DNA from: Gemmatimonadales bacterium
Lineage (GTDB): Bacteria; Gemmatimonadota; Gemmatimonadetes; Gemmatimonadales; GWC2-71-9
DNA: 64,000 nt
Direction: 5' to 3'
NCBI GenBank assembly: GCA_037189525.1
Contig: JBBCJC010000003.1
Location: forward strand, 576,001 to 640,000
The notes beneath the pieces were generated by a model. It did not search any database. It saw nothing but the letters and a program-made list of their open reading frames with translations, and had not been told where the DNA came from. Positions 1 to 12,556 of this stretch are shown one piece after another (the first letter of the stretch is position 1; the number at the start of each line of letters is the position of its first letter). A program made the translations under genes and the position numbers.

Positions 1-95
1 TGCGCTCGACCCGATTCTATTCGTTTGCGACCTATTTTACCTACGCGGCGTATTTTGCCAGCGGGGGAGTGGCTCGCATGCGTAGATCAGGCTGA
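1..95 (+). CDS. Phe/Tyr-rich attenuator leader peptide (start codon cut by the window edge)
   Basis: Frame from nt 3 reads [30 protein letters not shown] (TGA at 93-95). Nt 1-2 are TG, consistent with a clipped ATG/GTG/TTG. It has 4 Phe and 4 Tyr codons within 14 codons (nt 15-56), directly upstream of aroF. Confidence 0.8.
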
Positions 96-122
96 CAGTA
101 GCGCCAGACGCAAGCGAACCAC

Positions 123-154
123 GGCCCCCGCAAATCGCGGGGGCCTTTTTGTTT
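123..154 (+). terminator. Attenuator (intrinsic terminator) upstream of aroF
   Basis: GGCCCCCGC-AAATC-GCGGGGGCC followed by TTTTTGTTT. GCGGGGG at 61-67 can pair instead with CCCCCGC at 125-131. Confidence 0.85.
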
Positions 155-175
155 GCCCAAAGCCCCGAGGATCCG

Positions 176-1018
176 ATGACCGCGTTTTCTGCCCAGCTGC
201 CTGCGACCGTTCCCGTCACCGTCGGGGATCGGTGCTGTTTTGGTGGCACCGATCTCGTCGTGATCGGCGGGCCCTGCTCGGTCGAGAGCGCGGCCATGGT
301 ACTCGACACCGCGTTGTCCGTGGCGGCGTCCGGAGCGCGGATGCTCCGGGGTGGGGCCTTCAAACCGCGCACCTCGCCCCACACCTTCCAGGGAATGGGC
401 GACCCGGCGCTCGACCTGCTGGCCCAGGCCGGCGAACGGGCCGGTCTCCCGGTCGTGACCGAAGTGACCGATCCTCGGCACGTGGATCGAGTGGCCGGGG
501 TGGCCGACATGCTCCAGGTCGGCGCCCGCAACATGCAGAACTACGCCTTGCTCGCCGAGGTCGGCCGGAGTGGAAAGCCGGTCCTGCTCAAGCGCGGCCT
601 GGCCGCGACGCTCAAGGAATTCCTGCTTGCTGCGGAGCATATCCGGGTCGCGGGGAACGATGCGGTGGTGCTCTGTGAACGCGGGATCCGCACCTTCGAA
701 ACCGCCTCCCGTTTCACGCTCGATGTCACCGCCGTTCCCGTCCTCAAAGCCGAGAGCCACCTGCCGGTCATCGTGGACCCGAGCCATGCGGGCGGGCGCG
801 CCCCGCTGGTGGCCCCGCTGGCCCGGGCGGCCATCGCGGCAGGTGCGGACGGGTTGATCGTCGAGGTACACCCCGAGCCGGCGACGGCCCAGTCCGATGC
901 GGAGCAATCGCTGACGTTCGCCGCGTTTGCGGAGCTGATGGTGCAGGTGGAGCGGGTGGCGCTCGCCGTGGGGCGGACCATCGGTGCCGCGCCGCTGGCC
1001 GTCGGGGCCTCGGTATGA
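176..1018 (+). CDS. aroF: 3-deoxy-7-phosphoheptulonate (DAHP) synthase, type I-beta, catalytic domain only
   Basis: [30 protein letters not shown] and DPSH motifs. ATG at 176 has a GAGG SD. Confidence 0.93.
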
Positions 1019-1566
1019 TGCGGATTGCCATTCAGGGCGAACTGGGCGCCTTCTCCGAGATCGCGGCCGACTATATGAGCCGGGGCGAGCACGAGGTGGT
1101 TCCCACCCGCTCGTTCCGGGACGTGGTCGAGGCGGTGGAGAGTGGCCGGGCGGATGCCGGTGTTCTCCCGATCGCCAACAGTATCGTGGGGCCGGTGGTG
1201 GACAGCGTCGATGCCCTGGCAAGCGGGACGGCGGTCCTGGTCGATGGCGAATGCGACGTTCCGGTGCGCCTCCACCTGATGGGCCTGGGCGCGGCCACCC
1301 TCGACCGCGTGGCGCACGTCGCATCCCATCCCGTAGCATTGGCGCAGTGTACTCGTTTCCTTGGCGGCCATCCCGATTGGTACGTCGAGACCTATTACGA
1401 CAGCGCGGGCGCGGCGCGTGACGTGGCCGCGCGCGGGGATTCTTCGTTCGTCGCCATCGCGGGCGACGCTGCCGCCACGCGGTATCGGCTTGCCATTCTG
1501 GCCCGCGACGTCCACGATCTGCCGGACAACTCGACCCGCTTCGTGCTGATTCGGAGGCGCCCATGA
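1015..1566 (+). CDS. pheA: Prephenate dehydratase lacking an ACT domain
   Basis: [23 protein letters not shown] and SHPVALAQC motifs; ends just after the N-S-TRF motif. Confidence 0.88.
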
Positions 1567-1940: not shown

Positions 1941-2117
1941 GGCCGGCTCGATGCCGAGCCGCCGGCTATTTCGGAATGGCTGGCGGTCGGGTTACCCTTC
2001 CTGCCGCAATTTGTTCCTCGGCGGAACAATCCGCCCCGGCGCTCGGCCGGGGCGGTCGGATCTCCGGCGTCCGGCGGAATATCCGCCCGGATTTGCCCGG
2101 CTGAACCTGGGGTTGGT

Positions 2118-11340: not shown

Positions 11341-12453
11341 ATGATCATCGGCGTACCGAAGGAGATCAAGACCAATGAGAATCGGATCGCATTGGTCCCG
11401 GCTGGTGCGGAGCTACTGACGGAGACGGGTAATACGGTCTACATCGAGAAGGGGGCCGGGCTGGGGAGCGGCTTCACCGATGAGGACTATGTGGGCGCCG
11501 GCGCGAAGATCCTCGACACCGCGGACGAGGTCTGGGCCAAGGCCGACATGATCATGAAGGTCAAGGAGCCGATCGCGGTCGAGTGGCCGCGGATGCGCGC
11601 CGGACAGGTCATCTACACCTACTTCCATTTTGCGGCGTCGGAAGAACTGACCCGGGCCGTGATTGCCTCTGGCGCGATTGCGATTGCATACGAGACCGTG
11701 CAGTTACCGACCGGCGAGTTGCCGCTGCTCACGCCGATGTCCGAAGTGGCAGGCCGGATGGCGGTGCAGGAGGGGGCCAAGTACCTGGAGAAGGTCTACG
11801 GCGGCCGCGGTGTGCTGCTGGGTGGCGTGCCCGGTGTGCCGCCGGCAGACGTGATCATTCTGGGCGGTGGCGTGGTCGGCATCAATGCGGCCAAGATGGC
11901 GGCCGGCATGGGCGCCAATGTCACCATCATGGACCTGTCGCTCGATCGGTTGCGCTACCTCGACGACGTGCTGCCCGCTAACGTCACCACCCTCTATTCC
12001 AACCGCTACAACATCCTCGGCGCGATTCAGCGGGCCGATCTGGTGGTGGGTGCCGTGCTCTTGCCGGGTGCCAAGGCGCCGCGTCTGATCCGGCGTGAAG
12101 ACCTCAAGACGATGAAGCCGGGCGCGGTAGTGGTCGACGTTGCGGTCGACCAGGGCGGCTGTGTCGAAACGATCAAGCCGACCACGCACGAAGATCCGAT
12201 CTACTTCGTCGACGGTGTGCTGCATTACGCCGTGGCCAACATGCCGGGCGGCGTGCCGCGGACTTCGACGCTGGCGCTGACCAATGCCACGCTGCCGTAT
12301 GCCATTCCGCTGGCCAAGCTGGGCTGGCAGGAAGCCTGCCGCCGCGATCGCGCGCTGCAGCTCGGCCTCAACGTGGTCGAGGGCAAGGTGGTTTATCCCG
12401 GCGTCGCGGAGGCCTTCGGCCTGCCGCTGGTCGACGTCGGCGCGGTGTTGTAG
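11341..12453 (+). CDS. ald: Alanine dehydrogenase
   Basis: [33 protein letters not shown] and VANMPG. Confidence 0.96.
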
Positions 12454-12464
12454 TATGCCGACCT

Positions 12465-12495
12465 GCCGGACGCACCGAGGGATGGTGCGTCCGGC
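12465..12495 (+). terminator. Hairpin after ald
   Basis: GCCGGACGCACC / GGTGCGTCCGGC perfect 12-bp stem; no U tract. Confidence 0.45.
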
Positions 12496-12556
12496 CGGTC
12501 GATGCATTACAGGTCGTTCCCCCCTCGGTCAATCCGCTTCCTCCGCATCGACGACC

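What the first reader, a model, noticed from the sequence alone, without database searches (positions are those of the whole stretch)
1..175. Dual Phe/Tyr leader-peptide transcription attenuator upstream of aroF-pheA-aroH
Seen: a short ORF missed by the ORF track, (M)[30 protein letters not shown], with 4 Phe and 4 Tyr codons in nt 15-56, unusual in GC-rich DNA. A strong terminator follows at 123-154, and GCGGGGG (61-67) is complementary to the terminator's 5' arm CCCCCGC (125-131), giving a possible antiterminator. Established: this matches the pheL/trpL ribosome-stalling design. Inference: it senses both Phe-tRNA and Tyr-tRNA. I am not aware of such an attenuator being described in this lineage, but could not check.
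Basis: partly seen in the sequence, partly recalled or inferred. Interest (0 to 1): 0.85.

Follow-up and report, generated by a model that had tools for sequence, protein, structure and literature searches.

The report
Leaderless Phe/Tyr attenuator before aroF-pheA-aroH
A 31-codon mini-gene with four phenylalanine and four tyrosine codons, followed by two competing RNA hairpins, sits in front of three aromatic amino-acid genes, two of which lack their usual feedback domains, and likely lets a stalled ribosome switch them on when these amino acids run short; this is a textbook control device in a little-studied bacterial phylum.

Summary
The base before nt 1 is A, so the ATG is real. The 31-codon frame carries 4 Phe and 4 Tyr codons, and both the terminator (123-145 plus U-tract) and an antiterminator (61-131, z -4.95) are present. 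A -35/-10 pair ends 6 nt before the ATG and there is no SD, so the mRNA is likely leaderless. The layout recurs before 81 of 100 related aroF loci, against 0 of 19 paralogue loci and 41 of 1939 terminator-like sites genome-wide. On average leaders pair better with their own terminator arm than with others. Folding models put the sensing window at Tyr12-Phe13-Tyr15; the last Tyr/Phe pair would not relieve termination. Here AroF lacks its regulatory domain and PheA lacks its ACT domain. PheA is the only prephenate dehydratase found in the genome, and a second DAHP synthase heads the trp operon behind a Trp leader. Function is untested, and dual sensing is inferred: the known Corynebacterium Phe-Tyr-Phe leader responded to Phe only. 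It is a new member of a known kind, not in Rfam. This scan has already noted the same family in at least nine genomes.

The parts
1..95 (+). Leader [34 protein letters not shown]; the A of the ATG is nt 0, one base outside the window. Its predicted sigma-70-type promoter also lies outside the window (TTGCGC, 17 nt, CAGATT; G000:C3:575965-575993) and ends 6 nt before the ATG, so the transcript is likely leaderless
   Evidence: no Pfam match. Same promoter geometry in 75 of 85 homologous leaders against 126 of 12158 other ATG/GTG sites; promoter conserved in G021 and G005 apart from one base of the -10 in G005. Start site not measured.
15..56 (+). Control codons F6 Y7 F9 Y12 F13 Y15 Y18 F19; predicted main sensing window Y12-F13-Y15 (nt 33-44)
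   Evidence: Sequence; constrained folding
40..67 (+). Predicted protector hairpin (segments 1:2) that hides nt 61-67; extends to about nt 21-90 in the full transcript
61..131 (+). Predicted antiterminator (segments 2:3): 61-67 pairs with 125-131 on top of a long stem 69-122
   Evidence: z -4.95; the G021 and G005 changes here fall in unpaired or mismatched positions; own-leader/own-arm pairing across the family
123..155 (+). Intrinsic terminator (segments 3:4): 9 G-C pairs at 123-145 and a U-rich tail at 146-155
   Evidence: the G021 and G005 changes lie only in the loop
176..1018 (+). aroF, DAHP synthase without the N-terminal ferredoxin-like (ACT-type) regulatory domain; SD-like GAGG at 167-170
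   Evidence: (PF18152 absent here, present in the genome's two other DAHP synthases)
1015..1566 (+). pheA, 183-aa prephenate dehydratase, catalytic domain only (no ACT domain); the only PF00800 match in the genome
1563..1940 (+). aroH, AroH-type chorismate mutase; no AroQ-type (PF01817) match found in the genome
1970..1998 (+). Possible separate promoter for the downstream rseP (TTCGGA, 17 nt, TACCCT); marks the likely end of the cassette
   Evidence: Read by eye, where the stretch is conserved in all three cassette-bearing genomes; not tested against chance

Best explanation
This is likely a classical ribosome-stalling transcription attenuator on a likely leaderless mRNA, predicted to raise transcription of aroF-pheA-aroH when charged Phe-tRNA, and probably also Tyr-tRNA, is scarce. 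Inferred steps: transcription starts at or next to the ATG and a ribosome loads there without an SD. If the ribosome runs through to the distal codons or the stop codon, nt 61-67 are covered or paired upstream and the 123-145 terminator forms. If it stalls at Tyr12, Phe13 or Tyr15 (more weakly at Phe6, Tyr7 or Phe9), nt 61-67 capture 125-131 before the terminator's 3' arm is made and RNA polymerase reads through. Shown: the sequences, their conservation, and the domain content of the genes. Because AroF and PheA lack their allosteric domains, this switch would be the main visible feedback on this set of enzymes. Tyr codons make metabolic sense because AroF and AroH feed both branches and the genome holds a TyrA-like gene elsewhere.
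For: ATG, codon cluster, terminator and antiterminator are present. The element is top of 1939 terminator-like sites for aromatic content. Leader plus terminator occurs in 81 of 100 related aroF loci against 0 of 19 paralogue loci. Leader peptides in 85 called loci are 8.8% Phe, 10.9% Tyr and 2.3% Trp. Across 64 distinct terminator arms the own-leader duplex averages -18.6 against -15.1 kcal/mol for cross pairs; none of 10000 permutations came below -16.6, and 51 of 64 beat 95% of base-shuffled leaders. A promoter ends 5-9 nt before the start in 75 of 85. An SD-like pairing is seen in 2% of 85 leader starts against 35% of 78 aroF starts. Nt 0-154 are 152/155 and 151/155 identical in G021 and G005, while aroF third codon positions are 156/240 and 132/240 identical. 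Model, transcript to nt 143: antiterminator probability 0.99-1.0 for stalls at Y12, F13 or Y15, terminator 0.96-0.99 for Y18, F19, distal codons and the stop. Leaders before aroF-tyrA are Tyr-heavy (mean Tyr share 0.80, n=17) and those before aroF-pheA are mixed (0.44, n=33). The trp-operon DAHP synthase of the same genome has a WWWPW leader instead. TyrA-like gene at C5:775473-776336.
Against: No expression or reporter data. In equilibrium models the terminator wins once its full 3' arm is free (transcript to nt 146: 0.59-1.0 for all stall sites), so readthrough depends on folding kinetics. The same model gives a clean switch in only 34 of 85 homologues. With no ribosome the G000 model is undecided (0.48 terminator at nt 143). 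The own leader ranks in the top tenth for only 21 of 64 arms, because the arms are alike and GC-rich, and related genomes are not independent. The link between codon content and operon content rests on 2 changes on the tree and 1-2 independent pairs, so it is not statistically shown. In C. glutamicum, Tyr availability did not affect the Phe-Tyr-Phe leader. The TyrA-like protein scores under every NCBIfam cut-off.
Confidence: 0.88

Rival explanations
1. The same attenuator responds in practice to Phe only. The Tyr codons are kept for RNA structure (TAT/TAC and TTT/TTC are similar U-rich codons that pair in the protector) or were inherited from an ancestral aroF-tyrA operon. This is a sub-case of the best explanation that refutes only the word 'dual'.
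For: C. glutamicum aroR responded to Phe and not to Tyr (review passage). The operon holds pheA but not tyrA. The codon run is also segment 1 of the protector.
Against: Two of the three codons in the modelled sensing window are Tyr. A TAT to TAC change in G005 keeps Tyr12. Tyr is the commonest aromatic residue in the family, and several leaders have Tyr but no Phe. AroF and AroH serve both branches (established pathway knowledge).
Confidence: 0.3
2. The switch senses general ribosome slowing or loss of transcription-translation coupling (stress, translation inhibitors, or arrest by the nascent peptide), not a specific amino acid.
For: Any stall in codons 12-15 gives the same modelled outcome. 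Leaders end in Arg/Gly-rich tails (15% Arg).
Against: The peptide sequence is not conserved apart from aromatic enrichment. In the same genome the codon identity matches the pathway downstream: Trp before trp, Cys before cysK, Met/Cys before metY-metX. The Arg/Gly tails coincide with the G/C-rich antiterminator strand.
Confidence: 0.07
3. The hairpin is simply the terminator of the upstream dxr transcript and the short frame is incidental.
For: dxr ends at nt -71 on the same strand, so its transcripts would meet this terminator.
Against: The element travels with aroF in many other gene contexts. In most other genomes of the genus dxr lies directly before rseP, with no cassette. It has its own promoter, aromatic run and antiterminator.
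Confidence: 0.02
4. It is a T-box or a metabolite-binding riboswitch.
For: T-boxes control aromatic genes in other phyla (recalled).
Against: No T-box or riboswitch family among the 10 Rfam matches at E up to 10 in window 1-1000. Only about 120 nt precede the terminator, and 96 of them are the reading frame. Conservation across the family is at the level of codon class, not nucleotide motif.
Confidence: 0.02

Closest known systems
Corynebacterium glutamicum aroR-aroF attenuator (Mentz 2013, PMC4046766, passages read; Neshat 2014 not seen, only as summarised in passages of PMC11802643)
   Same: Leader peptide with Phe and Tyr codons before a DAHP synthase operon; transcription raised under Phe limitation by ribosome stalling.
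   Different: There a single Phe-Tyr-Phe motif, and Tyr had no effect; here 4 Phe plus 4 Tyr, a different phylum, and an operon with domain-less AroF, domain-less PheA and AroH. Sequence relationship not tested.
E. coli pheL-pheA and trpL-trpE attenuators (Rfam RF01859 Phe_leader; review passages; four-segment scheme recalled)
   Same: Short leader frame with control codons, protector, antiterminator and intrinsic terminator.
   Different: Not an Rfam member (17.5 bits, E 5.4, against a gathering score of 55); likely leaderless instead of SD-led; two amino acids rather than one.
uORFC-13-1 motif upstream of aroF in Acholeplasma (PMC8632094, passages read)
   Same: Predicted uORF with Phe codon(s) directly before a terminator upstream of aroF.
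   Different: Has an RBS, is restricted to Acholeplasma and environmental sequences, and is described as Phe-based; not compared by sequence here.
Leaderless polycysteine sORF attenuators of mycobacteria (bioRxiv 10.1101/834739, abstract and outline read)
   Same: Leaderless short frame with clustered control codons as the first element of an operon.
   Different: They sense Cys and act by freeing the downstream ribosome-binding site; here the output is an intrinsic terminator.

Membership tests
Classical leader-peptide transcription attenuators | Short upstream ORF with a valid start codon | tested here: met
   ATG at nt 0, 31 codons
Classical leader-peptide transcription attenuators | Cluster of codons for the pathway's end products | tested here: met
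   4 Phe and 4 Tyr in 14 codons; top of 1939 sites; 81 of 100 homologous loci
Classical leader-peptide transcription attenuators | Intrinsic terminator between the leader and the first gene | tested here: met
   85 of 100 homologous loci by my rule
Classical leader-peptide transcription attenuators | Mutually exclusive antiterminator placed so that a stall on control codons frees it | tested here: met
   equilibrium models switch cleanly in 34 of 85 homologues only
Classical leader-peptide transcription attenuators | Measured amino-acid-dependent readthrough that needs translation of the leader | not testable with these tools
   No RNA holder was listed; needs a reporter or Term-seq
Rfam Phe_leader RF01859 | Score at or above the gathering threshold of 55 bits | tested here: not met
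   17.5 bits, E 5.4
Leaderless sORF attenuators | Promoter placed so that transcription starts at the start codon, no SD | tested here: met
   By sequence only: -10 ends 6 nt before ATG here, 5-9 nt in 75 of 85 homologues; SD-like pairing in 2%
Leaderless sORF attenuators | Experimentally mapped start site at the ATG | not testable with these tools
   No RNA run listed
C. glutamicum aroR-type dual Phe/Tyr leaders | Phe and Tyr codons in a leader upstream of DAHP synthase | tested here: met
C. glutamicum aroR-type dual Phe/Tyr leaders | Common descent with aroR (sequence or structure homology) | not tested
   The aroR leader was not fetched; convergence is likely given how short such leaders are (inference)
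T-box riboswitch | Stem I with specifier and the T-box antiterminator motif | tested here: not met
   No T-box match at E up to 10 in window 1-1000

The most novel reading that the evidence does not exclude
A true two-input (Phe or Tyr) leaderless attenuator has replaced allosteric feedback altogether on this branch: DAHP synthase without its regulatory domain, prephenate dehydratase without ACT, and an AroH mutase, all controlled only by ribosome speed. Across Gemmatimonadota the leader's codons are re-tuned to whatever the operon makes (Tyr-rich before aroF-tyrA, mixed before aroF-pheA, Trp before aroF-trp), as part of a phylum-wide set of leaderless attenuators.
Probability: 0.4. Interest if true: 0.55.

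Novelty: new member of a known kind. Interest (0 to 1): 0.36.

Why it matters
It extends a textbook mechanism to a phylum for which my searches of the held library found no report, and defines an RNA family of at least 85 members that Rfam lacks. The natural series of leaders with different Phe:Tyr:Trp ratios in front of different operons is a ready test set for whether one leader can sense two amino acids, which the Corynebacterium case left unsupported. The pairing with enzymes that lack feedback domains suggests that transcriptional sensing can stand in for allostery. The mechanism itself would not surprise a specialist.

Tried and rejected
(1) RNA evidence: no RNA holder was listed for the locus; this says nothing either way, and read laying was not used. 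(2) Idea that Tyr codons are there because Tyr is made from Phe by phenylalanine hydroxylase: it arose from a blank PF02153 search and a PF00351 hit. Rejected: PF20463 found a TyrA-like gene that PF02153 had missed, present in all three cassette-bearing genomes, and the hydroxylase homologue has Ala where the solved enzyme has the first His of its FHDLFGH motif. Because PF02153 gave a false negative here, the order-wide tallies are not used for absence claims; one search was used only to locate three tyrA seeds. (3) Horizontal transfer of the cassette from family f2: the quick tree grouped G000 with L032 and L120 (SH-aLRT 97), but an AU test did not reject grouping with other same-family copies (p 0.71, and the constrained tree scored higher). 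Origin is unresolved. (4) Statistical proof that leader codons follow operon content: only 1-2 independent pairs. (5) My first -35 pattern missed TTGCGC (42 of 85) and was widened after I had seen the sequences, so 75 of 85 is a post-hoc figure, though its control rate is 1%. (6) Papers on a Shewanella aroF-tyrA attenuator: a table lists one as sensing Tyr-tRNA, citing an E. coli paper (PMC2659441, passages); PMC5343134 (passages) added nothing. (7) PMC8408635 (passages) calls AroH an unregulated mutase but gave no passage on domain-less DAHP synthase, so feedback insensitivity of AroF and PheA rests on domain absence and recalled knowledge. No covariance model, structure prediction or complex prediction was run. 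No supplements were read.

Full report
Observation. The window starts one base into the leader. The genome shows A before nt 1, so the frame is ATG-initiated and reads [31 protein letters not shown] from nt 0 to 95. Phe codons start at 15, 24, 36 and 54, Tyr codons at 18, 33, 42 and 51. A terminator of 9 G-C pairs spans 123-145 and is followed by TTTTTGTTTG. Nt 61-67 pair with 125-131 and close a long hairpin 61-131 (-41.3 kcal/mol, z -4.95). The full leader instead folds into a protector plus the terminator (-67 kcal/mol, z -3.70). Of 1939 terminator-like sites in the genome, 41 have a 12-45-codon frame upstream with at least 4 aromatic codons in 10, and only this one reaches 6. Rfam has no member-level match; Phe_leader scores 17.5 bits against a cut-off of 55.

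Surroundings. Upstream, dxr ends at nt -71. Then come TTGCGC, 17 nt, CAGATT and 6 nt to the ATG (G000:C3:575965-575993 for the promoter), with no SD; the generic promoter scan did not list this site, which matches the consensus loosely. Downstream lie aroF (176-1018), pheA (1015-1566), aroH (1563-1940) and rseP. This AroF lacks the ferredoxin-like regulatory domain PF18152 that the genome's two other DAHP synthases carry, and its frame is open for only 30 codons upstream of the ATG, too few for that domain. Its closest solved relatives are 262-276-residue enzymes. PheA is 183 aa and covers the catalytic domain only. The organism belongs to Gemmatimonadota, most likely Gemmatimonadales: the best titled relatives of AroF carry those names, and two of them are identical in the aligned part to loci from the same order and family.

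Conservation. I examined 102 related aroF loci: 38 returned as loci, 59 of the 60 that I fetched down the list (L112 fell outside the group on the tree), and 5, after dropping 2 duplicates. Two had too little upstream DNA. Of the remaining 100, 85 have a short frame plus terminator and 81 have at least 4 aromatic codons in 10. Of the 15 misses, 8 show a leader by eye with a hairpin that my rule missed, 2 have aroF inside a longer operon, and 5 show none. Controls: 0 of 19 Gemmatimonadota paralogue loci reach 4 (one has a Trp leader with 3), and 7 of 67 aroF loci from other phyla do; one of those 7, L163, looks like a T-box by a recalled motif. In other orders of the class 5 of 21 loci pass. 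Between G000, G021 and G005, nt 0-154 differ at 3 and 4 positions, against 35-45% divergence at aroF third codon positions. The changes fall in the terminator loop, in unpaired or mismatched positions of the antiterminator, or are synonymous for Tyr12; one changes Ala25 to Val at an internal-loop position.

Antiterminator and promoter across the family. For 64 distinct terminator arms, the duplex with the leader's own coding region averages -18.6 kcal/mol against -15.1 for cross pairs. No permutation of 10000 came below -16.6, and 51 of 64 beat 95% of shuffled leaders. Against this, the own leader ranks in the top tenth for only 21 of 64 arms, and kin are not independent. A -35/-10 pair ends 5-9 nt before an in-frame start in 75 of 85 leaders, against 126 of 12158 other ATG/GTG sites; the pattern was widened after inspection. 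SD-like pairing is seen at 2% of 85 leader starts and 35% of 78 aroF starts. Leaderless translation is therefore likely but not measured.

Mechanism. With the ribosome modelled as a block from 18 nt before to 13 nt after the A-site and the transcript ending at nt 143, stalls at Tyr12, Phe13 or Tyr15 give the antiterminator at 0.99-1.0. Stalls at Phe6, Tyr7 or Phe9 give 0.60-0.65. Tyr18, Phe19, distal codons and the stop give the terminator at 0.96-0.99, and with no ribosome the two are even. With three more bases free the terminator wins everywhere (0.59-1.0), so readthrough would rest on the antiterminator forming first. Across 85 homologues mean terminator probability is 0.53 at the best aromatic codon, 0.95 at distal codons and 0.92 at the stop, with a clean switch in 34. 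These are equilibrium models, not measurements.

Why both amino acids. AroF and AroH act before the Phe/Tyr split (established pathway). G000 has a stand-alone TyrA-like gene, as do G005 and G021. A second DAHP synthase heads the trp operon behind a leader with WWWPW and the same promoter geometry, so the genome appears to divide Trp sensing from Phe/Tyr sensing between two copies. In the family, leaders before aroF-tyrA have a mean Tyr share of 0.80 (n=17) and those before aroF-pheA 0.44 (n=33); 34 loci had neither gene in the fetched DNA and 1 had both. That contrast rests on 2 changes on the tree and 1-2 independent pairs, so it is suggestive only. The caution is C. glutamicum, where a Phe-Tyr-Phe leader before aroF answered to Phe but not Tyr (review passage). 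I put dual sensing at about 0.6-0.65 given that the attenuator is real.

What is particular here. Only 3 of 22 genomes of the genus have this aroF copy and a PF00800 match (14 of the 22 pass the completeness and contamination limits). In 16 of the other 19, dxr lies directly before rseP (0 to about 220 nt apart) with no cassette between, counting G004 by its second rseP match; in the rest the contig ends too early (G001) or no dxr match lies within the fetched flank (G007), and the counts are read from the tblastn table, where 17 loci of 16 or 17 genomes show the dxr match. So the cassette with its attenuator was placed into the dxr-rseP junction, or lost from it in the others; the tree does not decide between transfer and descent. 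Domain-less AroF is common in aroF-pheA operons (24 of 33) and was not seen in aroF-tyrA operons (0 of the 12 of 17 with a called start). That AroF and PheA are feedback-insensitive is inferred from domain absence and recalled biochemistry; a paper passage calls AroH an unregulated mutase (PMC8408635).

Comparison and novelty. It works like pheL and trpL but is not an Rfam Phe_leader member. Aromatic leaders before aroF are described in C. glutamicum (PMC4046766 and PMC11802643, passages) and predicted in Acholeplasma (PMC8632094, passages). Leaderless attenuators are described in mycobacteria (10.1101/834739, abstract and outline). Three searches for a report in this phylum gave 0, 1 unrelated and 0 papers; the library lacks most subscription papers. 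The scan's own notes hold the same family in at least nine genomes; these are leads, not support. Verdict: real, likely functional as described, a new member of a known kind; interest 0.36.

Noticed in passing
G000:C3 about 116300-116520, minus strand (L225 about 12300-12520): Likely leaderless Trp attenuator (peptide with WWWPW, TTGACC/TATACT promoter, terminator) before a full-length DAHP synthase that heads trpE-G-D-CF and, further down, trpA. L025 has a similar Trp leader.
   Followed up: partly
L056 and L079 (G173, G415), about 600 nt upstream of aroF: Two leader-terminator units in series: a promoter-proximal leader with four Tyr in a row and its own antiterminator (-18.2 and -23.5 kcal/mol), a further hairpin, then a Phe/Tyr leader with terminator and no promoter found by my rule.
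   Followed up: partly
G000:C5:484090-484830, minus strand (L230:1477-2220): Phenylalanine hydroxylase homologue with Ala in place of the first His of the FHDLFGH motif seen in the solved enzyme; the G005 and G021 copies also score weakly, while G015 and G009 keep the His. That this His binds iron is recalled. Likely inactive.
   Followed up: partly
G000:C3 about 809900-810060 (L226): Likely leaderless short frame with two Cys-Cys pairs and a hairpin before cysK.
   Followed up: no
G000:C5 about 194700-194890 (L227): Short frame rich in Met and Cys codons with a terminator before metY-metX.
   Followed up: no
G000:C5 about 533750-533930, minus strand (L228): Likely leaderless frame with three Cys in a row and a strong terminator before a gene with no NCBIfam match.
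   Followed up: no
L129, L133, L144, L151, L181, L182: Aromatic-rich short frames with terminators before aroF in records titled Anaerolineae, Planctomycetota, Solirubrobacteraceae and Calditrichota, so the design is not confined to Gemmatimonadota.
   Followed up: partly
window 1968-2009: Stretch between aroH and rseP conserved in all three cassette-bearing genomes, with a possible TTCGGA/TACCCT promoter that would free rseP from the attenuator.
   Followed up: no
genus-wide, 22 genomes: 19 of 22 genomes have no PF00800 (prephenate dehydratase) match and 17 of 22 no match to the G000 TyrA-like protein; they may be Phe auxotrophs or use another route. Eight of the 22 fall short of 90% completeness or the contamination limit.
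   Followed up: no
L043, L052, L057, L063, L067, L080 (genus g28): Leader and hairpin are intact but the U-tract is weak and interrupted; termination there may be inefficient or factor-dependent.
   Followed up: no
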